Shown one piece after another: positions 13,343 to 26,090 of a stretch of 64,000 bases of DNA. The translations under genes and the position numbers were made by a program. Where the stretch lies: contig CAZLEV010000005.1 of NCBI GenBank assembly GCA_964558645.1, positions 175,321 to 239,320 on the forward strand, read 5' to 3'. Under the pieces are notes generated by a model that ran no database searches, was not told where the DNA came from, and worked only from the letters and a program-made list of their open reading frames with translations. How positions within the stretch are numbered: the stretch's first letter is position 1; every line of letters begins with the position of its first letter. Origin of the DNA: an uncultured archaeon. Lineage in GTDB: Archaea > Asgardarchaeota > Thorarchaeia > Thorarchaeales > Thorarchaeaceae.

Positions 13343-14482
13343 TTATTTCATGCGCCTCGGTTTCCCCTTCAGCAGACCAAGACCTTTCTTGCACTGCCAT
13401 AAGACGTAGAAGACTCGCTTGTCACGCAGGACCTCTGGATCATATTGACTACGAAGATCTTCAAATTTCTGGATAAGCTCATTGCGTCTCGAGCCGCTTG
13501 TATCTGACTTGACCTCATCCAAGAGCTGCTCAAAAGGTTCCATCACACGATCCAGCTCGGCGATGTCCCAGCGGATGATGGCTCCACTACCATCAGAGGT
13601 CAAGAATCCTCGCTCATTGTGAATCCATTCGATTCCGTCGATCTCGCTATCTGTTGTGGCTTCACCCTCTACTCTGCCGGTCTCGAGGTTCCACACGAAG
13701 AGGTTCTTGTTGGCAGACCCAGACACCAAGTACTTGTTATCCGTACTGAACACAACGGAACGTACCTCCCCTGAGTGCCCCCGTAAGACACATTTCTTCG
13801 TTAGCTCTTCTCCTGAGGAGTTCCAGACGATGATATCGTGATCGGAGGACCCGGAAGCCACGAGAGAACCATCAACGGAGAAGCGGACAACCTGCACAGC
13901 GGTTCGATGCTCTTCAATCCATTGCTTCTTCTCGCCGGTATTACCATCCCACAAGCCGATTGATGCATCAACGCTTGCCGACACTATTTTCTCGTTCACC
14001 GGAGACCATTCGCAGCTCACTACGTAGAGGGAATGACCCTTCATCCTGTGTATCTTCTCTCGATCATCAACATCCCAGATGATCATGGTTGTATCGCCGC
14101 TCCCAGAGAGCAGCTTGCTGCCATCGGGTGAGAAAGAAAGTGACAGGACTGGGTAAGTGTGTCCTTCTAGCCTGGCCAAGCATTCACCGGTTCGTATATC
14201 CCAAAGCTTCACCACACGATCGACGCCACCTGATGCGATGATGTCGCCACGCGGGCTGAAGGCGATGGATGTGCAGAGAAACTCATCCTGAAGGCGCTGA
14301 ATCTCTTCACCGTTAGAGACATCGTATAGCCGAATAGCACGGTCTTGAGTAGCTGAGGCAATCATGCGCCCAACCTTATTCATTGCGAATCTACGAGTGA
14401 TATCGCCAGCTACCTCTGCAGGAGGTTTCAATACCTTAGGTCGCAGGAAAAGGGTAATCTCTGGTCCTTCCATCTGGTTCAC
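13343..14482 (-). CDS. WD40-repeat beta-propeller protein with a C-terminal helical tail
   Basis: About 7 GH...WD repeats, e.g. LEGHTYPVLSLSFSPDG...IIWD. Confidence 0.95.
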   Translation of the reverse strand: MNQMEGPEITLFLRPKVLKPPAEVAGDITRRFAMNKVGRMIASATQDRAIRLYDVSNGEEIQRLQDEFLCTSIAFSPRGDIIASGGVDRVVKLWDIRTGECLARLEGHTYPVLSLSFSPDGSKLLSGSGDTTMIIWDVDDREKIHRMKGHSLYVVSCEWSPVNEKIVSASVDASIGLWDGNTGEKKQWIEEHRTAVQVVRFSVDGSLVASGSSDHDIIVWNSSGEELTKKCVLRGHSGEVRSVVFSTDNKYLVSGSANKNLFVWNLETGRVEGEATTDSEIDGIEWIHNERGFLTSDGSGAIIRWDIAELDRVMEPFEQLLDEVKSDTSGSRRNELIQKFEDLRSQYDPEVLRDKRVFYVLWQCKKGLGLLKGKPRRMK

Positions 14483-14565: not shown

Positions 14566-15132
14566 CTACATCATGCCACCGTCTTCGAGAATCTTGATTG
14601 CCAGCTCCAAGAAAGAGGCCTCAACATTCTCTCCGGTCTTGGCAGAGGTCTCGATGAACGAAGATTGAACTCCCTGATTCCCAATGCTCTCGGCGAATGC
14701 CTGACCCTCCTCAGTTGTCACGATTGTCTGCTTCATGACAGGGTTGTCCTGGAACTGCTCCCTCAGGTCAATCTTGTTGCCTATGACCACGACAGGGATC
14801 TTCTTTCCTGCATTCTTCCAGCATTCATCAAGCCAGTTGGGCAGGTTCTCAAACGAGGCTCGTTCCACAGTAGAGTAGACAGCAAGTGCGCCTTGAGCCC
14901 CTCGGTAGAACGTCGAACGGACGCTCTTGAAGTGCTCCTGGCCTGCAAGGTCCCAAATCTGGATACTCACATCGTGACCACCCTCAAGGGACATCTTTTT
15001 CACGGCAAAGTCAGCACCAATAGTGATCATATAGCTCGCCCTGAAACCCTCGCCCATGTACGTTCTTCGTAGCGAGGTCTTCCCTACCGAGCCATCTCCC
15101 ATGAGAACGATCTTGAACAACGCTGTAACCAT
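14566..15132 (-). CDS. Rab-like small GTPase (Ras superfamily)
   Basis: GDGSVGKT, TIGADF, WDLAGQ, FYRGA, NKID, ETSAK; no CAAX/CC tail. Confidence 0.95.
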   Translation of the reverse strand: MVTALFKIVLMGDGSVGKTSLRRTYMGEGFRASYMITIGADFAVKKMSLEGGHDVSIQIWDLAGQEHFKSVRSTFYRGAQGALAVYSTVERASFENLPNWLDECWKNAGKKIPVVVIGNKIDLREQFQDNPVMKQTIVTTEEGQAFAESIGNQGVQSSFIETSAKTGENVEASFLELAIKILEDGGMM

Positions 15133-15720: not shown

Positions 15721-17996
15721 CGAAGATGAGAGAAATAGGATGGCTAATGGATGCCAGCATAGACACACAACAGCATGCTCTCACTCTGTGGATCAAGATC
15801 GGTGGTAAGACCCGGGGATACACCTATCACGACTTCAAGCCCTCGGTCTTTGTTTCCACCGATCTGTTGAAAGACGCTGAATGGACCAAAGACAGAATCA
15901 TAGGATTGGTGGAGGAACACCCTCTCGTTGTAGATTCGCAGGTGGTCCGGCGTTTCGTGGACGTATATGATGTTGAACCACAAGAGGTCATTGAGGTGTT
16001 CTCATCCCCCGATTCGATTCGGGAGCTGGCCGAGGATCTGGAGAGGCTGCCAGGTGCAACGGTGTTCAACGCAGATATAGATCCGATTCAGCAGTTCTTC
16101 ATAACGCGAGAGATATTTCCCTTCGGACGAGTAGAGTTGCAATTCACCGAACAGACTGTCACCAACATCAGGTGTATCGACAGTAGAGAGGCAGTTCAGT
16201 ATGAGGTGCCATATCTCCGAGAGATTCGGATTGAGGTCTTTGTGGATACAGACAGGTTGTTTCCAAGATTGGAAGACCCGATTCATCACATCGAGATAGA
16301 GAGCGACGGAGAGATCATCACCATAAAGGAGAGAAGCGAACGGGAAACCTTGGAGAGATTTCAGAGGACCATCGACGACATAGACCCGGACATCATAGTG
16401 ACACAGGGGGGTGACGAGGACCTGTTCCGCTATCTCACTATCAGATGCAGAGTCAATGATTTCGAGCTGGTTCTCTCCCGTGACGATACACCACTCCGGG
16501 TGCAATACCGTGAGCCGACCTCGTTCTGGCAATATAATAGAGTCGTGTACCGCTCCGGCAACCAAGTCATGTTCAACGGTAGAATGCATATCGATCGAAC
16601 TGAAGGTTTCTCCTATTCCCCCTCGGGCATGGAAGGAATCATCGAGGGGTGTAGACTTGCATTTGCACAGCCTCAACGCGTTGCACGGATGTCTATTGGT
16701 GGGGTGAATGCTGCGGTTCAGTTCTATAATGCATATCAGATGGGGATGCTGATTCCACCAGTAAAGAGAAACCCTGAGTTTCTCAAGTCGGTCAATGAAC
16801 TAGCCACTATCGACCGTGGAGGACTAATTCTTCAACCTCAACCTGATATCTATGAGAACATAGCAGAATGCGACTTCTCGTCCATGTATCCAACGCTCAT
16901 GGTGACCCGGAACATAAGCCCCGAAACCATCTGCACACGGGAAGACTGCCCCTTTGACTACGAGCACTGTATAGAGGTACCGGGTCTTAACTTCCGCCTG
17001 TGTAATCAGAAGCGTGGGATAGTAGCTAAGTCACTCGAACTGATTCTCAAGAAGAGGAAGGAGTTCAAGAGACTCATCCGAGAGGGAACGGACACTGCAC
17101 GGTATGAGCGGATGCAAAACACTCTGAAGGGAATCCTGGTCTCCTGCTTCGGATACCTCGGGTTCAAGAATGCAAAGTTTGGACGAGTAGAGGCCCACAC
17201 TGCAGTCACCGCACTGGCCAGAGATGTACTGCTAAGGACCCAAGAGATAGGAGAGGAGATGGGGCTGGAGATGGTTCACGGTATCGTAGACTCACTCTGG
17301 GTGAAGTCTGACAGCCCGATAGACTATGAGCATGTGAGGGACTTCTGCGAACGGGTCACAGAAACAGTGGGAATCGAAATGTCATTGAAGGGCATCTATC
17401 GATGGATGGTGATTCCTTCGTCAAGACTTCATCCCACAATAGCTCCCTTGAACCGGTACTACGGCGTCTATAGAAATGGGGCGATAAAGACCAGAGGGAT
17501 TGAAACGCGGCGGCGCGACACATGCCTCTATGTAGGGGACTGCCAACAGGAGATGATCAAGGTCCTTGCTCGTGGTAAGGATAAGGAGGGGTTTCTCGAC
17601 AGAATACCGGATGCATATGAGACGTGTAGAAGATACATACAAAGGCTCAATGAGGGGGATGTTGATATCCGGGATTTGATTTTGAACTCCCGTCTGACCC
17701 GAGAGCCACAGGATTATCGGACAACCTCACGCGCCTCAATTGTTGCACAGCAGCTCATCAAGGCAGGAAGGGAGCTACACGCCGGGCAAAAGGTACGATA
17801 CATCATGGTGGATGCAAGTTCTCAGAATCCACTCAGGAGAGTGAAAGCTCTAGAACTTCTCAATAAGAACACGCATTACGATGCCGCAGCCTATGCAACA
17901 CTGTGTTTCAGAGCCTTTGAGAATCTGATACCGGCCCAGTACATCTCAAGAACTGAGGCGTATCCCGTGTATCAATATACCAACCATGCTCACTGA
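15717..17996 (+). CDS. polB2: Family B DNA polymerase, PolB2 group
   Basis: Motif A DFSSMYP, motif B KGILVSCFGY, motif C altered to HGIVDS (PolB2 hallmark versus YGDTDS), and a degenerate exonuclease domain. Confidence 0.9.
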   Translation: MTKMREIGWLMDASIDTQQHALTLWIKIGGKTRGYTYHDFKPSVFVSTDLLKDAEWTKDRIIGLVEEHPLVVDSQVVRRFVDVYDVEPQEVIEVFSSPDSIRELAEDLERLPGATVFNADIDPIQQFFITREIFPFGRVELQFTEQTVTNIRCIDSREAVQYEVPYLREIRIEVFVDTDRLFPRLEDPIHHIEIESDGEIITIKERSERETLERFQRTIDDIDPDIIVTQGGDEDLFRYLTIRCRVNDFELVLSRDDTPLRVQYREPTSFWQYNRVVYRSGNQVMFNGRMHIDRTEGFSYSPSGMEGIIEGCRLAFAQPQRVARMSIGGVNAAVQFYNAYQMGMLIPPVKRNPEFLKSVNELATIDRGGLILQPQPDIYENIAECDFSSMYPTLMVTRNISPETICTREDCPFDYEHCIEVPGLNFRLCNQKRGIVAKSLELILKKRKEFKRLIREGTDTARYERMQNTLKGILVSCFGYLGFKNAKFGRVEAHTAVTALARDVLLRTQEIGEEMGLEMVHGIVDSLWVKSDSPIDYEHVRDFCERVTETVGIEMSLKGIYRWMVIPSSRLHPTIAPLNRYYGVYRNGAIKTRGIETRRRDTCLYVGDCQQEMIKVLARGKDKEGFLDRIPDAYETCRRYIQRLNEGDVDIRDLILNSRLTREPQDYRTTSRASIVAQQLIKAGRELHAGQKVRYIMVDASSQNPLRRVKALELLNKNTHYDAAAYATLCFRAFENLIPAQYISRTEAYPVYQYTNHAH

Positions 17997-17998
17997 CA

Positions 17999-19345
17999 TC
18001 ATTCGGTGACTGCATGTGCCTGCAGTGCCACTCGCGGCTTAAGCTCTCGCACAGGGATTCCCGTCTCCGCTGACACCTTCATTATATCATCAGCCTCAGG
18101 CTTGATGTTGATTATGCTGCCGTCTGGTCCTCTTGATATCTTCACACGAACCATGTAGTCCTTATTATCGATCTCCAGCTTACAGACAATAGTCTCGCGG
18201 GCAGCCTTCAGACGTTGCCATGATGTGTACCGGATTCCCAGAGTACCTAGGTGACGAATCATGATTTCGGCAATGCTCTTCAGACCGGTCTTGGCTGCGA
18301 TGACTTTGACCACAAAGCAGGGTCGATTCTTCTTACCATATGCCGGGATCATCACCACATCGTAGGCCAATCCCTCCGAGAGTAACGTGTCGAAGAGACT
18401 GCCCATGACTTCGCCATCAACGTCGTCTACATTTGCTTCAATCACAATAACGCTATCATCGTTCCATTGTTCAAACACTTCAGCCCTCTCCTCTCCACGA
18501 GTCGGCGGACTCACCACTTGAGAAGCCTTTCGTTCAGTCTTCTCAGAACTCTTGGGTTCTGGAGCCTCTGCAACGCCCTCTGCCTCCTTGAAATTGCCAA
18601 GGGATATCTTCATTCTGTTGGGAACTTCCCCAAGGTCGCGTGAGCCAAACCCGGTACCCTGTTGTGCAAGGACAAAATCCTCAGTCGAATCTACATACTC
18701 CTGAGCGAGGGATACCAGAAGGGCCGCTCCAGTGGGAGTCAGGATTTCAGTTTCGGCTTTGCCGGTGAGAAATGGAACATCATGAGCAACCAATATCTCA
18801 GCCACTGCGGGAACTGGAACCTCCAGCTCGCCATGCTCGGTTTCGATGGTGCCACTGCCAACTGCAACTCTTGTCGCCACAAATCTCACTTCATTCAGAA
18901 GGCCCATCTTCTCGAGGAGATACACTGTTCCGACAATATCTAGAACAGTATCAACTTGGCCAGTTTCGTGGAGGTGTAACTGCTCAATAGGGGTATCGTG
19001 TGCGCGCACCTCGGCCTGAAGAATCTCATCCAGTGCCCTCTCTGCCAGCTTTGCTGCTGTCTTGGAGAGCTCGAGTTCCTCACAGACAGTCTGTAACACT
19101 TCCAGCATCGACTTCGGACTGAGTCGGATACCCTTGTCCCCCACGACCTCGAGTCGCTTACCGTTCACTCCAGCCTTTTCCTCTTGAACAACCTTGACAC
19201 GCAGAGTCGGATCGTAGATAAGCAGGGCTGCAGCAACAGGCAACAAGGCATCGTCTTCTCCCATCAAATCGAGAAGAGCAGCTAGAAACATATCTCCTGA
19301 TGCACCAGCTTCATGAACATCGATTAGAGCAGTCTTCTTGGTCAA
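17999..19345 (-). CDS. larC: Nickel-pincer cofactor nickel chelatase LarC
   Basis: AGASGDMFLAALLD, HLHETG..D, TPTGAA, EANVDD, GKKNRP, TLGIR, KPE. The TTG start at 19345 is preferred. Confidence 0.9.
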   Translation of the reverse strand: MTKKTALIDVHEAGASGDMFLAALLDLMGEDDALLPVAAALLIYDPTLRVKVVQEEKAGVNGKRLEVVGDKGIRLSPKSMLEVLQTVCEELELSKTAAKLAERALDEILQAEVRAHDTPIEQLHLHETGQVDTVLDIVGTVYLLEKMGLLNEVRFVATRVAVGSGTIETEHGELEVPVPAVAEILVAHDVPFLTGKAETEILTPTGAALLVSLAQEYVDSTEDFVLAQQGTGFGSRDLGEVPNRMKISLGNFKEAEGVAEAPEPKSSEKTERKASQVVSPPTRGEERAEVFEQWNDDSVIVIEANVDDVDGEVMGSLFDTLLSEGLAYDVVMIPAYGKKNRPCFVVKVIAAKTGLKSIAEIMIRHLGTLGIRYTSWQRLKAARETIVCKLEIDNKDYMVRVKISRGPDGSIINIKPEADDIMKVSAETGIPVRELKPRVALQAHAVTE

Positions 19346-19511
19346 TGGAATTGGTTCTCCTTTCTTTAGAGGTCTGCAACTGCAGGCTGACACTGCAATC
19401 CTTTTCTTTCTTTCGCAGTCAGGAGTCAGGACGTAACACGACAAGGTCAATCCGTTCTTAAATAAAAACCTGCGACGGGGACAGTCACTGTGATTAGTGC
19501 TTCACTGTGGC

Positions 19512-20291
19512 CTATTCAGCCATGCCCCGTCTCCATTGTTCGAAGATTGCCATGTACATGCACTCAGCAGGGCTTATCCACATTGCAGACGAATCAAAGG
19601 CCTCGTCAACCAGTTCGACTGGGGCATCACGAATAAGCACAGCAGGTATAGACTCGTCAGACTCGCCCATAAGCACGGTACATGCAGATGCCAAGTTGTC
19701 TGCCACTGCTCTGCGAGTTATACGGAGCTCGTTGCCGAAGAGATCTCTACGTCCTCGGTCGTCCATGACAGGCCGAAATCCGGCCACGCCTAGGGCCATC
19801 CCAATATTGCCGAGCCTGAGAGGTTGCGTCCTGCTGTCAATGATGATCACTCCAAGCCTCAATCCCCATCGTCCCAGAATTTCTTGACGGATTCGAGCAG
19901 CACTGGCCTTTGCATCGACTGGCAAGAGCGAGGCATAACCAGCCGGAACGTTTGACTTGTCAACCCCAGCATTCGCCATGAGGGTATTGTTCTTGATGGT
20001 CAATACAACACGAGGAATACCACCAAGAATCTCATCCGCCTCATCTAGTACCAGCTGTGCCACTGCAGGAAGGATGTCATACTTCGTGCCTAGATTGCGA
20101 GCCTCATCAGTCACACTGACATCGTTCAATCTAACAACCCTACCTTCAGTCGTCCCCAACGGAGTCTCGGCAATGCCCATGATGTCACCCTCCTTGGGGT
20201 CGAGATCTTGGGACTTCATGGATTGCGAAATCACGCTGAGGAAGTCATCTTCTCTTGTGATGGTACGAGTCTTTATCGGAAATAGTTCCAA
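19512..20291 (-). CDS. cofE: CofE-family gamma-glutamyl ligase (F420-0:L-glutamate ligase-like)
   Basis: ANAGVDKSN, VIIIDSRTQPLRLG, DLFGNELRIT, MGESDESIP. Confidence 0.88.
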   Translation of the reverse strand: MELFPIKTRTITREDDFLSVISQSMKSQDLDPKEGDIMGIAETPLGTTEGRVVRLNDVSVTDEARNLGTKYDILPAVAQLVLDEADEILGGIPRVVLTIKNNTLMANAGVDKSNVPAGYASLLPVDAKASAARIRQEILGRWGLRLGVIIIDSRTQPLRLGNIGMALGVAGFRPVMDDRGRRDLFGNELRITRRAVADNLASACTVLMGESDESIPAVLIRDAPVELVDEAFDSSAMWISPAECMYMAIFEQWRRGMAE

Positions 20292-20380
20292 TGCACAGCC
20301 TCAATACTTCCGCGAGGAGAACTGCAAATAAAGCATACCTATCTCTCAGTCGGCTATATCATGGTGCAAGACGATGGAGA

Positions 20381-21796
20381 CTATTCTCTCTGAAGCTTCA
20401 TCCGCGCACCCATTATACACGAGTCCCCTCTTCGACCGCCCATCGGATTCTCTCGCGTCCCCATTGAGTTCATGCATCTAGCGGTCACAGCAGCACCCAT
20501 GGCGAGCCCGTCCTCGACAAATACAACCTGGCGTGATGGTTCCGGAGGCATCAGCTTGCCACTCAGGAGTTCAGCAAGAAGAAGGGCCGGTTTCTGCCCT
20601 GTCACGAGTGCCCGTCCTGTTAGCCCAAAAGAGGTTTCAGGGCGCACCAGTTTCCTGAAGTCACAGATGCTTATCAAGCGATATGCCAGTCGGGCCATCA
20701 GCAGGTCCACGACAGCCAAGAATAGACCTTTTCCGCCCTCCTCGACTATCTCAAAACCATGTCGTGACAACAGAGGCAAGTCTGAACCATTGTCGCCAAC
20801 GTCTATGCCGATGAGCAGGGTCCCGGACTCGGCGGCTGCATCGGTATTAACAGGAACTGTACCGTACTGCTCCACTCCATCTGGAACCTCCTCAATCTGG
20901 ATTATCTTCTCAAGACGCTCAACCCATTGCTCTACCTTCAGATCAGTAGTCCTTGTGGATTGCGATGACAAATCGAGCATGACTGCATCAGTTCTGCTCG
21001 AGAGTCCTGACCCCTTTGCCAGAGCATCAGGAATGGCCCCTGCAAGCCCTGCGAATGAACCAGTAGTATGAGCATAGGGATAAGAGTCATCAACGACTCT
21101 TCCAGCAAGAGTTGTCCCAAAGTCCAACGTGAGAACAGGATTTCGAAAGTCGATATCTGTGCCTTTGACAGCACCTTTGATTCCTGCAGTGACCAGCTCC
21201 CCTTCCATCTCATTTGCCACGATTTCTGTATTCGCTGGGGGAAGGCAGCTTGCGACGGCTCCATCGAAATACACCTTCTTAAGCCAAGTGTACCCTCGAA
21301 CGCCTGGAGGGAGATTCTCAGGAGACAGCGATGCAGTCATCTTTCGCGGTGGAACACCAGCATCAAGACAGCCCTGTGCCAGCGCCTTGATTATGCAGTG
21401 GACTTCTTGTGGCGTCGTGAATCCTGCATTTATGCCTGTAGACCTGACCACGAAGTGAATGTCATTCTCTATGTCGAGCTTGGCCTTTGATACTGCACTT
21501 GTGAGGAGGTCAGCAACCATCTCAGTGACGGAGTTCTCTGTCAATGGCACGCCTGTGATTGTTTCTCCAAAGCTCGACTCGTCGTCTCCTGGCGGACGAA
21601 TGTCCCGTGTCATGCGTACCTCTTTTGCCACCTCAAAGATCTCGGCAGTCTCGAGATTGGTGGCCACTATGATGCACTTGGTGGTCGTATTTCCCAGCTC
21701 TACTGACACAACCGTATAGAATGGACCAACCTTCAGTGAGGATGCACTGATTCTTCGAGGATGTACTATTTCAGGTCTCATCAGTGTCAACACCAT
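20381..21796 (-). CDS. Methanogenesis marker 14 protein (DUF2114-like, ASKHA-fold)
   Basis: SVELGNTTTKCI, FVVRSTG, NEMEGELVTAGIK, LDFGTTLAGR, VFVEDGLA.GAAV.ARCMNS.GT..NP.GG.RG..C. Confidence 0.85.
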   Translation of the reverse strand: MVLTLMRPEIVHPRRISASSLKVGPFYTVVSVELGNTTTKCIIVATNLETAEIFEVAKEVRMTRDIRPPGDDESSFGETITGVPLTENSVTEMVADLLTSAVSKAKLDIENDIHFVVRSTGINAGFTTPQEVHCIIKALAQGCLDAGVPPRKMTASLSPENLPPGVRGYTWLKKVYFDGAVASCLPPANTEIVANEMEGELVTAGIKGAVKGTDIDFRNPVLTLDFGTTLAGRVVDDSYPYAHTTGSFAGLAGAIPDALAKGSGLSSRTDAVMLDLSSQSTRTTDLKVEQWVERLEKIIQIEEVPDGVEQYGTVPVNTDAAAESGTLLIGIDVGDNGSDLPLLSRHGFEIVEEGGKGLFLAVVDLLMARLAYRLISICDFRKLVRPETSFGLTGRALVTGQKPALLLAELLSGKLMPPEPSRQVVFVEDGLAMGAAVTARCMNSMGTRENPMGGRRGDSCIMGARMKLQRE

Positions 21797-21803
21797 CAGT
21801 TTG

Positions 21804-22739
21804 TCAGAGTAGTTTCTTGAATGGGTGTTCGTTGGAGGGTTCAATGCCAAGCTCGGCCTTGACAGACTCCGCGGTGAAAATGTCAGCCATACTAGCTACA
21901 GGAAAGACACGTTTTGCATTGTTCAGCGGCCCGTAGAGGACGAAATCAGCACCCATCATCTGGAGCATCAGACTGGAGGCAACATCGCAAATCATGTAAG
22001 CCTCCTTGTCTACCTTCTTTCGGTTCTTCAGCCAGGTCCAAGATGCCGGTGCATTGTGGATTCCTGATCCGGTAGGCAACCCGTAGACAGACTTCGAAAC
22101 AAAGGTGAAGGCCACTGCAGAACCTGCACCAGCACCCATGGCTGTGGTTGCGGTATCGATAAGCGGCTTCTGAACGCCAACCTCCTTCGCAAGGGCAAGA
22201 AGACCCGAAGAACTATCGTCGATTCCGGTATCCAACACTGCCCTCCGTCCGCCGATGGAAGAATCACGAGGATTGAATGCAAGGATGATAGCTGATTCTG
22301 GACCGATCGCATCAATCGCTTCGAGTTCTTTGCTCTCCACGGAAACACTGATTGAATTGTAGATTGCTCTGTCAAGGCAGCCAATCTCCTCAGCGTGTCG
22401 AAGCCCTGCCACTCGAACTTCAGATTCTGTTGAATCAATCAGGAAGGGGACATCAGAGACCTCAGTGACAAAATCAATGAACTTGCACATGGCCTCATCG
22501 GTCTGTGAGCATATCTGTAACATACAGGGATTCCCCGTGATCTCGGACATCTCTTCTTGGGTAGCTATCTGCTCTTCTGCCTTCGCCCTGTCGAAGCTGC
22601 CCTTCTTGGCGTCTTCCAGCAGTTTGTCTCCATGATAGAAGATTGTGCCCACAAGAACAGTTGGCAACTCACCAGGCGAACCTCCTATCTCGACATCACC
22701 GATTCTGTGGATGACCTGTTCTTTCTCAAATACAAACAT
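21804..22739 (-). CDS. mtrH: MtrH-family methyl-tetrahydropterin:corrinoid methyltransferase (copy 1)
   Basis: MFVFEKEQ, IGGSPGELPTVLVGTIFY, FLIDST, IYNS, GSGIHNAP, ADFVLYGP. Confidence 0.92.
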   Translation of the reverse strand: MFVFEKEQVIHRIGDVEIGGSPGELPTVLVGTIFYHGDKLLEDAKKGSFDRAKAEEQIATQEEMSEITGNPCMLQICSQTDEAMCKFIDFVTEVSDVPFLIDSTESEVRVAGLRHAEEIGCLDRAIYNSISVSVESKELEAIDAIGPESAIILAFNPRDSSIGGRRAVLDTGIDDSSSGLLALAKEVGVQKPLIDTATTAMGAGAGSAVAFTFVSKSVYGLPTGSGIHNAPASWTWLKNRKKVDKEAYMICDVASSLMLQMMGADFVLYGPLNNAKRVFPVASMADIFTAESVKAELGIEPSNEHPFKKLL

Positions 22740-22741
22740 AT

Positions 22742-23446
22742 CTACATCTCCTTTCCAATCAAGACAGTACCAGACTCCATCTCGCGAACTTCAATTCCCA
22801 CATTGGTGGGATGTAGTGAAAGAGAAGCTCCCAGAGCAAACTGCTCCAAAAGAGATGTCATCGGGTCCAAGTATACATCAAACTCCGGAAGGACGGCAAT
22901 TCCTGCACCGAGGGTTCTATGAGCGGCACGTTCGGCCTCCACAGTGAACTCCACCCAGAAAGGACCCTCAGGAAACGGGCCAATCTGGTGAGCAAGAAGA
23001 GATTCAGCCTCATCACGAATCGTGTCCGGGTCTGTAACGTTCATCAAGTCGATGAGTTGCACTTGCCCTCTGAATCGGTCTATTGCCTCCATTGGAATGT
23101 TCTCAATATAGGGGATTGCACCCGGCGCATTCAGAATCTTTCGATTGTCGTGGCTGACACCATATTGATGGAGACAGCTCAATGATGCACCCGTCCTATG
23201 TCCCGGTACTTCTGGACCACAGAGAATGAGATATCGGATGTTTGGATTCGAGATGATATTGACGACCACACGCTCAATGCCAATATTCTCGGTCTTGCAT
23301 GTCCCGATTATGGCATACCTGCTGTTGACTTCAATCTTCTTCCCCAGAGTGCATATGGCAACACTCAGCGATGGATCACCTACTTCAAAATCTCCAGCAA
23401 CAACAGGCCAATCTCGAGTGTTTTGTTCACCAGACATCTTCTTCAC
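22742..23446 (-). CDS. mtrA: MtrA/MtxA-like corrinoid protein without an obvious C-terminal membrane anchor
   Basis: WP.V.GDF.VGD, CKTENIGIERV..NIISNPNIRYLILCG.EV.GH.TG (cobalt-ligating His), GAIPYIEN. The C-terminus is hydrophilic. Confidence 0.92.
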   Translation of the reverse strand: MKKMSGEQNTRDWPVVAGDFEVGDPSLSVAICTLGKKIEVNSRYAIIGTCKTENIGIERVVVNIISNPNIRYLILCGPEVPGHRTGASLSCLHQYGVSHDNRKILNAPGAIPYIENIPMEAIDRFRGQVQLIDLMNVTDPDTIRDEAESLLAHQIGPFPEGPFWVEFTVEAERAAHRTLGAGIAVLPEFDVYLDPMTSLLEQFALGASLSLHPTNVGIEVREMESGTVLIGKEM

Positions 23447-23448
23447 CT

Positions 23449-24366
23449 TTAGGTGTACGTTGGGGGATCAAACAGCTCTGCATCGCGTCCAAGAGTCCGA
23501 CTGGCCTCAGCAACAGCTGTTGCCAGTGCGTTCCCAATCAATGCAACAGCTGCATATACTTCCTTTGTACGGACCATTGACCCATACATTATGCAGTCAG
23601 TAGCAAACAGCTGGGCTGCAACGGTTGATGCAACAACCGTAGAGAGATGAGTAATCTCATCATCTAAGCCCTCTTGGCGTATGAACTTCCAAGCCGATGG
23701 CGCATTGTGGGGACCAAGACAGGTGGGGAGGCCTAGCTCGGACTTGATGGCAAGAATTGTCCTGTACTCAAGACCGTATCCTGCACCGACTGGTAGAGTT
23801 GCGGGATCCACCAACACTTTCTCAACGGCCATTGAGTGGGAGTCTTCGAGCATCTTCTTGACGGTGTCCATTCGGTCGGATAAGTTGGTTGCACGTGGAG
23901 ACCAACCCAGAACAACAGCCATGTTCAACGAGCTCTCTCGAAGCAACGCTTTCTCATCATCCTTCATCGAGAGATTGATTGAGTTGTAGATTGCTCGATC
24001 AGAGAGACCGGTCTCATCACAGTATTCAATTCCGCGTTTTCGGGCTTTCGCACTGGTAGACTCGAACATAAAGGGGCCCTCGAAGGAATCAGCAAGCCAA
24101 GAGATGTGCTTCTCCATCGCCTCAGGTGTCCGCCCGAATGCCTGAATCACGAGGGGATGACCCGTTCGTTCCTCCATTTCCACGCCGGTGGCAATCCAGT
24201 CAGAGGCCAGTTCCTCATTAAACAATCCCTGTTTCGTGTTCTCCACAATTGGCTGCCCCTTGAAAAAGAGACCACCTATGAGGACGGTGGGGTTCTCTCC
24301 GGGCTGACCGCCTATGGTCACACCGCCGAAATCGTATGATACCTGGTTCTTCTTGAACACGAACAT
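23449..24366 (-). CDS. mtrH: MtrH-family methyltransferase (divergent copy 2)
   Basis: MFVFKKNQ, IGGQPGENPTVL, FMFEST (E in place of D), IYNSIN, GPHNAPSAW, IMYG. ATG at 24366. Confidence 0.88.
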   Translation of the reverse strand: MFVFKKNQVSYDFGGVTIGGQPGENPTVLIGGLFFKGQPIVENTKQGLFNEELASDWIATGVEMEERTGHPLVIQAFGRTPEAMEKHISWLADSFEGPFMFESTSAKARKRGIEYCDETGLSDRAIYNSINLSMKDDEKALLRESSLNMAVVLGWSPRATNLSDRMDTVKKMLEDSHSMAVEKVLVDPATLPVGAGYGLEYRTILAIKSELGLPTCLGPHNAPSAWKFIRQEGLDDEITHLSTVVASTVAAQLFATDCIMYGSMVRTKEVYAAVALIGNALATAVAEASRTLGRDAELFDPPTYT

Positions 24367-24376
24367 AACGACTCTT

Positions 24377-25351
24377 TCACCTAGGTCTTGGGTAGAGGCC
24401 TGCACCTTTAACTAGTTCGGGGATTGCGCTCTCCCAGCCCACGCCCATGATATGAATCCCATCCACTCCGTTTATCTTACGAATGTTTTCGATTGTTTCT
24501 GAGGCCATAAGGAGTCCCTCTGCTCTAACAGCTTCGCGCTTGTCAGCACCCTTTAGACCTCTCCCTGCCTCATCAAGCCGGGAAATCATAGAATCGGGAA
24601 TCTTAATGCCAGGAATGCGCTTGTTCATGAATCTGGCCATCTTAGGACCCTTCAGAGGGATGATTCCAGCTAGGACTCCAGCATCAAGTCCTTCGATGCC
24701 CTTCATAAACTCCTGCAGACGGCTTGTATCATAGATGGCCTGGGTCTGAAAGAACCTAGCCCCCGCTGCCTGTTTCTTCTCAGTCCGCCAGATATGCATC
24801 TCAAGGGGATCAGCATAGGGATTGAAAGTAGCTCCGATGAAGAATGTTGGAGTCCCCTCCAGTTCTTGCCCGGAGAGGTCTGTTCCGTGCATAAGATGCT
24901 TGGTAACCTGTAGCGCTTGGATAGAGTCCATGTCAAAGACCATCTTTGCCTCTGGATGGGATCCGAGCAGAGTATGATCGCCTGTGATGAACATGAGATT
25001 ACGCACGCCGAGCGCGTAGGCGCCATAGAGCTCGCTCTCAAACAGGATTCGGTTCCTGTCTCTCGCAGACATCTGCATTATGGGCTCGGCCCCAGCCTGA
25101 AGAATGAAATGGGCACAGACCATGCTGCTCATTGTCGGTATACCCCGAACGTTATCAGTGATGTTGATTGCATCACAGTATTCAGCAACCAGATGGGTGT
25201 GCTCACGGATTATGTTGGCGTCGGAACCATGAGGAGGTGTGATCTCACCTGTTACAACGAACTCATTGTTCTCAAGTAGGGAATCTAGATGACTGATTGG
25301 CAGGTTTGATTTCTCCAGATTATTTGCTTGCACCAGAGCGACTCTCTCCAC
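24377..25351 (-). CDS. metF: Methylenetetrahydrofolate reductase, catalytic subunit
   Basis: VVTGEITPP, INITDN, RDRNRI, ITGDH, KKQAAGARFFQTQ, GIHIM. Confidence 0.92.
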   Translation of the reverse strand: MERVALVQANNLEKSNLPISHLDSLLENNEFVVTGEITPPHGSDANIIREHTHLVAEYCDAINITDNVRGIPTMSSMVCAHFILQAGAEPIMQMSARDRNRILFESELYGAYALGVRNLMFITGDHTLLGSHPEAKMVFDMDSIQALQVTKHLMHGTDLSGQELEGTPTFFIGATFNPYADPLEMHIWRTEKKQAAGARFFQTQAIYDTSRLQEFMKGIEGLDAGVLAGIIPLKGPKMARFMNKRIPGIKIPDSMISRLDEAGRGLKGADKREAVRAEGLLMASETIENIRKINGVDGIHIMGVGWESAIPELVKGAGLYPRPR

Positions 25352-25430
25352 CCTTATTTCATTTCCGAGCCCAAGAGATGTCAGTCACCATGTCGTACGC
25401 ACGCTTCTAAGATGCAGCGCAGGACGATGT

Positions 25431-26090
25431 CTAGAAGAAAGCTCCGTGTTCAAGCTTTCGAGGACCGCGAGCAAGGCTCCAGTCCTTGAGGGCCCAAATC
25501 TTCTTGATATTCTCTTCTTTCCCGAGAGCCTTGAGGCGGTCGTATATCAACTGCCATACACACTCAGTATCTTCATCTCTCTCGCACATACCATCCATTG
25601 AACCACCACACGGACCATTCAAGATGCCCTTGGCACAGCGCGCGATGGGGCAGATGCCCCCTGTAAGATCAAGGATGCATTCTCCACACATGACACACTG
25701 CTCATGATGGTGAAATCTCTCGGGCATGTTTCCAAGAAACTCAGAGTCAGTTGCAGGGAACGATTCTTTCTCAGAATGCAGCTGAGTTAGTGTCTGGGTA
25801 GCAACGCCGCATGCTTGAACAAGGAAGGCATCGGCCTTCTCAACAATCTCTTTGTTCGCTTCGAGTTCTTGCTTGAACGCATTGATATCACACATTCCGC
25901 CCTCAACGAAGACGTATCCAAGCACCTCCTTGCCATTCTCTTCAAGGAAGTCACCCATGTCCTCAAGCTGAAGGATGCCCCCAACGTCACACATCTGTGC
26001 GCAGCCAGAGTCTCCAAACAGGACAATGCGATGTTTCCCTTCTAGCATCTCGAGAATCTTCTCGGGCGATTTCAGTTCCATGACAATCAA
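25431..26090 (-). CDS. metV: MetV, the Fe-S/Zn partner subunit of MTHFR (MTHFR_C domain)
   Basis: CAQMC.VGG, ACGVA.Q, CVMCGEC....TGGICPIARCAKGILNGPCGG...CE...ECVWQLIYDRL. Confidence 0.9.
   Translation of the reverse strand: MIVMELKSPEKILEMLEGKHRIVLFGDSGCAQMCDVGGILQLEDMGDFLEENGKEVLGYVFVEGGMCDINAFKQELEANKEIVEKADAFLVQACGVATQTLTQLHSEKESFPATDSEFLGNMPERFHHHEQCVMCGECILDLTGGICPIARCAKGILNGPCGGSMDGMCERDEDTECVWQLIYDRLKALGKEENIKKIWALKDWSLARGPRKLEHGAFF

What the first reader, a model, noticed from the sequence alone, without database searches (positions are those of the whole stretch)
19512..26090. Candidate new system: soluble corrinoid methyl shuttle (MetVF-MtrH-MtrA-MtrH-marker 14-CofE) in an Asgard archaeon
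Seen: seven co-oriented genes. From metF to marker 14 the gaps are only 2-10 bp. Two divergent MtrH paralogs sandwich an MtrA that keeps the cobalt-ligand His (EVPGH) but has no C-terminal TM helix, and no mtrBCDEFG genes are nearby. Known: MetVF makes methyl-H4folate in acetogens; MtrH transfers methyl from methyl-H4MPT to the MtrA corrinoid; soluble MtrH homologs such as MtgA and CmuB use H4folate. Inference: one MtrH loads the corrinoid from methyl-H4F and the other unloads onto H4MPT (or the reverse). That would be a Na+-pump-independent bridge between the folate and methanopterin C1 pools, linking bacterial-type and archaeal-type Wood-Ljungdahl branches.
Basis: partly seen in the sequence, partly recalled or inferred. 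Interest (0 to 1): 0.9.

Follow-up and report, generated by a model that had tools for sequence, protein, structure and literature searches.

The report
Membrane-free Mtr methyl shuttle, Thorarchaeia
This Asgard archaeon keeps a soluble remnant of the methanogens' vitamin-B12 methyl pump, with two different methyltransferases around one cobalt carrier; it probably passes methyl groups between the cell's two one-carbon carriers (folate and methanopterin), but that job is inferred, not shown, and the core gene set was already published.

Summary
The genes are real and as described: metV-metF-mtrH1-mtrA-mtrH2-marker14-cofE. The core mtrH1-mtrA-mtrH2 is adjacent in 60/60 Thorarchaeia loci; mtrE was found in 0/41 genomes, and this genome lacks mcrA. 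MtrA keeps its cobalt His, has no TM helix, and ends in an arm resembling MtrB's MtrH-docking N-terminus. H2 is canonical MtrH; H1 is a Thorarchaeia-specific, remodelled copy with MtrH-like ancestry, not MtgA. New here: H1 evolves about half as fast where metV is kept, tying H1 to MetVF; metV and ACS (cdhD/E) are almost mutually exclusive (36/40 genomes). A folate/methanopterin methyl shuttle is the best reading (0.45). The claimed link to Wood-Ljungdahl acetyl-CoA synthesis fails for this genome: no cdhC/D/E were found, and mer is deleted in place. MtrAH plus a marker gene in Thorarchaeia is published (Adam 2022), and this scan already noted the operon and the MtrB-like tail in other genomes. 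New variant of a known kind; interest 0.55.

The parts
25431..26081 (-). metV, Fe-S partner of MetF; accessory in the family
   Evidence: PF12225 E 3e-33; 29 of 86 relatives over the cut-off, single copy
24377..25351 (-). metF, methylene-pterin reductase (start codon uncertain)
   Evidence: PF02219; catalytic Glu, Asp, Gln equivalents conserved; only copy in the genome; next to mtrH1 in 56/56 loci holding both
23449..24366 (-). mtrH1, Thorarchaeia-specific remodelled MtrH (G32, E102, N128, D187, H220, N221, R202; basic tail patch lost)
   Evidence: TIGR01114 238 bits, under the cut-off 271; residue profile of 59 copies; stem of 1.26 changes/site or more, short crown
22742..23437 (-). mtrA, soluble corrinoid carrier; cobalt-ligand His80 at about 23198-23200; no TM anchor
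   Evidence: PF04208; model matches MtrA 5l8x at Z 27.1, rmsd 1.0 A over 157 aa; only MtrA in the genome
22841..22900 (-). MtrB-N-terminus-like arm within the MtrA tail (invariant Pro-Glu), likely MtrH-docking beta-meander
   Evidence: Tail profile's best PDB hit is MtrB 8q3v_B, E 0.19; Pfam MtrB in 15/40 members, best E 0.0011, no other family in more than 1; M. barkeri MtrB 13.5 bits
22745..22828 (-). second conserved beta-meander of the MtrA tail, origin unknown
   Evidence: Strands 204-207, 213-220, 223-230 at pLDDT 62-76; no significant match to MtrB/F/G or to the first arm
21804..22739 (-). mtrH2, canonical-type MtrH (T32, Q75, D102, N128, D195, H228, N229, K241/K242 patch)
   Evidence: TIGR01114 373 bits, over the cut-off; groups with Methanosarcina and Methanosphaera MtrH at 88/90
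20381..21796 (-). methanogenesis marker 14 (DUF2114), ASKHA-fold putative ATPase or kinase
   Evidence: model pLDDT 85; ASKHA folds at Z 12-17.5 with no single best family; also follows mtrH in a Methanosphaera mtr operon
19512..20291 (-). cofE-family gamma-glutamyl ligase; one of three paralogs in the genome; link to the module uncertain
   Evidence: TIGR01916 just over the cut-off; paralogs on C21 and C1; next to marker 14 in 51/53 loci and in one non-Thor Asgard contig

Best explanation
A soluble, non-pumping, B12-dependent pterin-to-pterin methyltransferase derived from the methanogen Mtr complex. Shown: gene set, conservation, absence of mtrE, soluble MtrA with cobalt His, two distinct and conserved pterin sites, coupling of H1's rate to MetV. 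Inferred: the MtrB-like arm fused to MtrA docks MtrH as MtrB does in Mtr (the arm's invariant Glu pairs with H1's invariant Arg202), most simply an H1:H2 heterodimer or two homodimers. The corrinoid domain swings on its flexible linker between the two sites. H2 serves H4MPT, H1 serves the folate-type pterin handled by MetVF, so methyl groups equilibrate between the pools without Na+ pumping. Marker 14 is an ATP-using helper, perhaps for corrinoid loading or reactivation (weak lead). Direction and use differ by lineage: feeding ACS where Cdh is present, joining the Fhs/FolD/MetVF and Mer/Mtd/Mch branches where it is not. In this genome the H4MPT side has lost Mer.
For: Core adjacent in 60/60 loci, metF-H1 in 56/56. 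MtrE 0/41. MtrB-like arm. H2 keeps the basic patch proposed to bind the H4MPT tail, H1 lacks it, as does MtgA. H1 keeps Asn, Asp, His, Asn, Arg/Lys and an invariant carboxylate at 102 with Thr32 changed to Gly. H1/H2 terminal-branch ratio: median 0.54 with MetV, 1.09 without, 1.48 in the two metF-less genomes; those two carry 14 and 10 changes at conserved H1 sites against 4 and 3 in H2. Fhs 81/87, Mch 27/27. Four 95-98% complete genomes (G003, G008, G009, G013) have MetVF plus Mer but no CdhD/E and no MtaC-type corrinoid protein, and no MetE or MetH was found in the class, which leaves the two reductases as the only evident methyl-level ends. Eleven Cdh-positive genomes lack a canonical Mer.
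Against: No substrate was tested. This genome has neither Mer nor Cdh, and neither do three further genomes of genus g10 and several others, so methyl-H4MPT has no evident partner there unless the Mer-like paralog (186 bits) acts. Single-contig genome G010 has no metF yet keeps H1 with its core residues. H1 retains Q75, H229 and R211 of methanogen MtrH and does not group with MtgA-like proteins. Asp102 is essential in MtgA (PMC7154762); Glu there may impair catalysis. ANME-1-type MetF may use H4MPT (PMC9012536). Genomes are related, and most are incomplete.
Confidence: 0.45

Rival explanations
1. One-pterin module. MetVF replaces Mer on methylene-H4MPT, as proposed for ANME-1. H1:H2 is a subfunctionalised heterodimer (H1 docks the MtrB arm and MetF, H2 catalyses), and methyl-MtrA exchanges with an unknown outside donor or acceptor such as an MtaA-like thiol methyltransferase.
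For: mer is deleted here and absent in about 18 of 40 genomes. ANME-1 MetF clusters with Asgard homologs. The MtrB-binding Arg is kept only in H1, the acidic residue 5 only in H2. H1+H2 as sisters is not rejected (p-AU 0.28). MtaA-like / corrinoid / MtaA-like trio on C7.
Against: 13 of 18 MetV-positive, Cdh-negative genomes also have Mer, which makes MetVF redundant on H4MPT. H1's own pterin-binding residues are invariant. Four near-complete genomes lack any MtaC-type corrinoid protein.
Confidence: 0.25
2. Methyl-acceptor hub for methylotrophy. Methyl groups from methylated substrates arrive through MtaA/MttB-type enzymes and a corrinoid protein; H1 (working like MtgA) and H2 unload them onto H4F or H4MPT for oxidation. 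Pterin-to-pterin transfer is at most a side reaction.
For: MtaC-type corrinoid proteins in 26/32 genomes, with no AcsE/MetH-type pterin domain in this genome. This reading fits the present genome, where MetVF-FolD-Fhs could oxidise methyl-H4F without Mer or ACS. A similar idea is published for other Asgards (PMC11291895).
Against: The module is kept in five Thorarchaeaceae genomes of 95-98% completeness that have no such corrinoid protein. No substrate-side methyltransferase lies in any of the 60 loci.
Confidence: 0.2
3. H1 is a catalytically dead scaffold, or the operon is a decaying methanogenesis remnant held by conserved gene order.
For: Asp-to-Glu change at an essential position; housekeeping flanks are equally syntenic.
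Against: 113 conserved columns in each paralog, intact frames across 16 genera, H1 slower than control genes in MetV lineages.
Confidence: 0.1

Closest known systems
Thorarchaeia 'canonical MtrAH' plus marker m26 (Adam et al. 2022, PMC9635834)
   Same: Same lineage and genes: MtrA and MtrH without other Mtr subunits, with an Mtr-linked marker; proposed to act as a methyltransferase around the Wood-Ljungdahl pathway. I take m26 to be DUF2114/marker 14 from its described distribution; not confirmed in the text I read.
   Different: The passages read do not mention a second MtrH, the link to metF/metV, the MtrB-like arm or a folate/methanopterin bridge.
Membrane Mtr complex MtrABCDEFGH (M. mazei 9QTP/9QTS, PMC12774963)
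   Same: MtrA corrinoid domain, canonical MtrH2, MtrB-type docking arm, mtrH-marker14 adjacency as in Methanosphaera.
   Different: No MtrE found, no TM anchor, hence no CoM site or Na+ pump; two different MtrH genes in place of one homodimer.
MtgA of Desulfitobacterium hafniense (PMC7154762) and CmuB-type MtrH homologs
   Same: Soluble TIM-barrel corrinoid:pterin methyltransferase; H1 lacks the H4MPT-tail basic patch, as MtgA does.
   Different: H1 scores 163 bits against a cut-off of 550, has Gly32/Gln75/Glu102/His220 for Ser32/Asp75/Asp102/Ser226, groups on the canonical side of the tree and is paired with MtrA, not an MtgC-type protein. CmuB itself was not in my tree.
MtxXAH operon of Methanosarcinales (PMC12978539)
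   Same: MtrA and MtrH homologs outside the mtr operon; function unknown.
   Different: One MtrH homolog and marker 4 (phosphotransacetylase fold) there; two MtrH, marker 14 and MetF here.
MtrA-like / MtrAH fusions of Atabeyarchaeia and Freyarchaeia (PMC11291895)
   Same: Asgard MtrA/MtrH without MtrE or Mcr.
   Different: Fused or non-canonical proteins; marker 14 was found in only 1 of about 300 Asgard genomes outside Thorarchaeaceae.

Membership tests
Energy-conserving Mtr (MtrABCDEFGH) | MtrA with cobalt-ligand His and MtrA fold | tested here: met
Energy-conserving Mtr (MtrABCDEFGH) | C-terminal membrane anchor on MtrA | tested here: not met
   Hydropathy 0.93 here, mean 1.10 over 61 copies; strands in the model
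Energy-conserving Mtr (MtrABCDEFGH) | Membrane subunit MtrE in the genome | tested here: not met
   0 of 41 genomes at least 90% complete; controls positive. MtrC, D, F, G were not searched genome-wide.
Energy-conserving Mtr (MtrABCDEFGH) | MtrB N-terminal MtrH-docking arm | tested here: inconclusive
   Consistent but weak sequence match in the MtrA tail, E 0.19 in PDB and 0.0011 in Pfam
Canonical MtrH (for H2) | TIGR01114 cut-off; T32/Q75/D103/N129/D196/H229/N230 and basic patch | tested here: met
Canonical MtrH (for H1) | TIGR01114 cut-off; Asp103; basic patch | tested here: not met
   238 bits under 271; Glu in 59/59; patch lost
MtgA (for H1) | NF047990 cut-off; Ser32/Asp75/Asp102/Ser226; grouping with MtgA-like proteins | tested here: not met
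MtgA (for H1) | H4F as methyl acceptor | not testable with these tools
   Needs an enzyme assay
Acetogen-type MetVF | Adjacent metV-metF with catalytic residues | tested here: met
Acetogen-type MetVF | Specificity for methylene-H4F (against the ANME-1 proposal of H4MPT) | not testable with these tools
   No close structure; no ANME-1 reference sequence was fetched
Wood-Ljungdahl pathway (this genome) | ACS/CODH with CdhC and CdhD/E | tested here: not met
   None found; genome 93% complete; also absent in 17 of 18 other near-complete MetV genomes
Corrinoid reactivase (RACo/EutA/DdrA) for marker 14 | ASKHA fold closest to a known reactivase | tested here: inconclusive
   ASKHA fold clear; RACo rank 3 by Foldseek, DdrA Z 12.7, EutA feature score 0.83, but kinases rank as high or higher

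The most novel reading that the evidence does not exclude
A dedicated B12 enzyme that moves methyl groups directly between tetrahydrofolate and tetrahydromethanopterin, built from Mtr by losing the membrane part, fusing MtrB's docking arm to MtrA and duplicating MtrH into two pterin specificities. In the half of Thorarchaeia without ACS it would join the two C1 branches into a formate/CO2 redox loop instead of a carbon-fixation route.
Probability: 0.4. Interest if true: 0.78.

Novelty: new variant of a known kind. Interest (0 to 1): 0.55.

Why it matters
The role of MtrAH outside methanogens is stated to be unclear (PMC9635834). This operon gives a small, soluble system in which the question can be assayed. 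I found no report of an enzyme that exchanges methyl groups between folate and methanopterin (10 paper searches and my own knowledge); one would explain how Asgard archaea with both carriers connect them, and how the Mtr pump was reduced to a soluble enzyme. The near-exclusive split between metV and ACS suggests two metabolic types within Thorarchaeia and warns against calling the class Wood-Ljungdahl users. The ASKHA fold gives a testable lead for marker 14, a gene of unknown function in methanogens.

Tried and rejected
Complex prediction of H1 + H2 + MtrA tail: no verdict (score 0.13, mark 0.32); not used either way. My idea that the MtrA tail holds two MtrB repeats: rejected, the second meander matches neither MtrB/F/G nor the first arm. 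Methyl supply for methionine synthesis: rejected, no MetE-family (0/36) or MetH homocysteine domain (0/20). H1 as an acquired MtgA: not supported. Recruitment by a membrane Mtr elsewhere: no MtrE. Fold searches with full MtrA reported only the corrinoid domain, so the tail's fold was not tested. Marker 14: no PDB sequence match; the fold searches did not single out a reactivase. Promoter and terminator scan at chance level, and it does not cover archaeal promoters. Paper searches for DUF2114 or marker 14 function gave nothing useful. Liu et al. 2018 was not held. The homolog search with H1 listed only close relatives (67-100% identity), nearly all named ones Thorarchaeia. The genes inserted between hflX and metF in some relatives look like secreted or substrate-binding proteins and seem unrelated.
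Full report
Observation. Seven minus-strand ORFs fill 19512-26081: MetV, MetF, MtrH, MtrA, MtrH, marker 14 (DUF2114) and CofE. Gaps from metF to marker 14 are 10, 2-11, 2 and 7 bp. The genome is 3.63 Mb and 93% complete; its named relatives are Thorarchaeota. It holds one MtrA, two MtrH and no McrA. MtrE was found in none of 41 genomes of the class.

Conservation. MtrA occurs in 78 of 87 genomes of the class. In 60 fetched loci mtrH1-mtrA-mtrH2 are always adjacent, mtrH2-marker14 in 57/57, metF-mtrH1 in 56/56 and marker14-cofE in 51/53. These loci were chosen by their MtrA match. The flanks tgt-hflX and larC-polB are as stable, so synteny alone says little about cofE. The metF link is better evidence, because insertions fall upstream of metF and never between metF and mtrH1. 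Marker 14 is in 76/79 other Thorarchaeaceae and 1 of about 300 other Asgard genomes. MetV is in only 29 of 86 relatives. Two genomes (G010, a single contig, and G014) keep the core but lack metF.

MtrA. The corrinoid domain superposes on solved MtrA at 1.0 A. In place of the membrane helix is a 55-residue tail modelled as two small beta-meanders at moderate confidence. A profile of 40 tails finds MtrB as its best PDB hit (E 0.19), and Pfam MtrB in 15 of 40 members. The match is weak in absolute terms but specific, and is limited to the first 20 residues. In M. mazei Mtr this part of MtrB docks the MtrH dimer, with a Glu9-Arg211 salt bridge (PMC12774963). The Glu is invariant in the tail; the Arg is invariant in H1 and absent in H2. 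Docking is inferred from this. I noticed the arm before consulting earlier notes; the scan had reported it in other genomes.

The two MtrH. H2 passes the MtrH cut-off, keeps all pterin ligands and the basic patch proposed to bind the H4MPT tail, and groups with methanogen MtrH (88/90). H1 forms its own clade with a long stem and short crown. It keeps Asn129, Asp196, His229, Asn230 and Arg/Lys239 (M. barkeri numbers), but has Glu for Asp103 in all 59 copies, Gly for Thr32, and no basic patch. MtgA, which uses H4F, also lacks the patch, but H1 sits away from the MtgA-like proteins. A duplication within Thorarchaeia is neither shown nor rejected (p-AU 0.28).

H1 follows MetVF. On a fixed tree, the ratio of H1 to H2 terminal branch length has median 0.54 in 13 MetV-positive genomes, 1.09 in 21 MetV-negative ones and 1.48 in the two without metF (Mann-Whitney p 1.6e-5, overstated by kinship). 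MetV appears lost roughly 7-9 times on that rough tree. The metF-less genomes deviate at 14 and 10 conserved H1 sites against a median of 1-3 elsewhere, while their H2 is normal. This assigns H1 to the MetF side. It does not name the pterin.

Metabolic setting. Fhs (81/87) and Mch (27/27) are near universal. This genome has Fhs next to FolD, Mch, Mtd and a dihydropteroate-synthase-like gene beside glycine-cleavage-like genes (the last named by eye). Among 40 genomes at least 90% complete, 18 have MetV without CdhD/E, 18 have CdhD/E without MetV, 1 has both and 3 neither. Nine less complete MetV genomes also lack CdhC. Canonical Mer is patchy (22/40). Here mer is deleted in place: about 945 bp are missing against the same-genus genome G074, flanks are contiguous, and a decayed 3' remnant is left. 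No CdhC/D/E were found, and no methionine synthase in the class. An MtaA-like / corrinoid / MtaA-like trio lies on another contig.

Mechanism. Best reading (0.45): a soluble H4F/H4MPT methyl shuttle, with MtrA's corrinoid moving between H1 and H2. From my own knowledge, N5-methyl transfer between the two pterins should be near equilibrium, so no pump is needed. The strongest support is four near-complete genomes with MetVF and Mer but no ACS, MtaC-type protein or methionine synthase, and the Cdh-positive genomes without Mer. The strongest objections are genomes like this one, with neither Mer nor ACS, and G010, with H1 but no MetF. Rivals: a one-pterin heterodimer with MetVF replacing Mer (0.25; PMC9012536), a methylotrophic acceptor hub (0.2), a dead or vestigial H1 (0.1). 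Marker 14 has an ASKHA fold; a corrinoid-reactivating role is only a lead.

Known and new. Adam et al. report canonical MtrAH without other subunits and an Mtr-tied marker in Thorarchaeia. This scan had already described the operon, the two paralogs and the MtrB-like tail in other genomes. Added here: the H1-MetV rate coupling, the metV/ACS exclusion and the in-place loss of mer, which together support a link of H1 to MetF but remove the acetyl-CoA framing for this organism. It is not a member of the energy-conserving Mtr family; it works like Mtr's first half-reaction run at two sites. Verdict: new variant of a known kind, interest 0.55.

Noticed in passing
G000:C24 about 17350-17510 (compare L167:8490-9610): Canonical mer gene deleted in place in this genome, leaving a decayed 3' remnant; intact in same-genus G074.
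   Followed up: yes
G000:C7:142962-145989 (L157): MtaA/CmuA-like, MtaC/MtbC-type corrinoid protein and a second MtaA-like gene; substrate unknown.
   Followed up: partly
L164:7001-11139 (JGI 3300022546): mtrH-marker14 facing mtrB-mtrA and two small mtrF/G-like genes with TM anchors, but no mtrEDC within the 15 kb locus; this MtrH is the sister of Thorarchaeia H2. Possibly an intermediate stage of Mtr loss.
   Followed up: partly
L145:8943-11162 (G381, another Asgard family): cofE directly upstream of marker 14 at a contig end, the only marker 14 found outside Thorarchaeaceae among about 300 Asgard genomes.
   Followed up: partly
window 17999-19450 (-): larC (nickel-pincer insertion protein) follows cofE in 50/50 loci; a larC-family gene also lies near mtrH in unrelated locus L165.
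   Followed up: no
window 14566-15132 (-) and 13343-14482 (-): Rab/Ras-like small GTPase next to a WD40-repeat protein, eukaryotic-signature type genes (by eye).
   Followed up: no
L167:3810-4001 and many contigs of G000: A dispersed repeat of about 190 bp with at least 15 matches in the genome at 76-88% identity, perhaps a MITE.
   Followed up: no
metF of MetV-negative genomes (e.g. L035, L039, L049): MetF is shorter at the N-terminus and half of the copies have His instead of Gln at the His88-equivalent site, which may reflect a change of electron donor after metV loss.
   Followed up: partly
G072:C213, G062:C70, G031:C84, G063:C64: A second, longer (331-345 aa frame) non-canonical MtrA-like gene in a few Thorarchaeia.
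   Followed up: no
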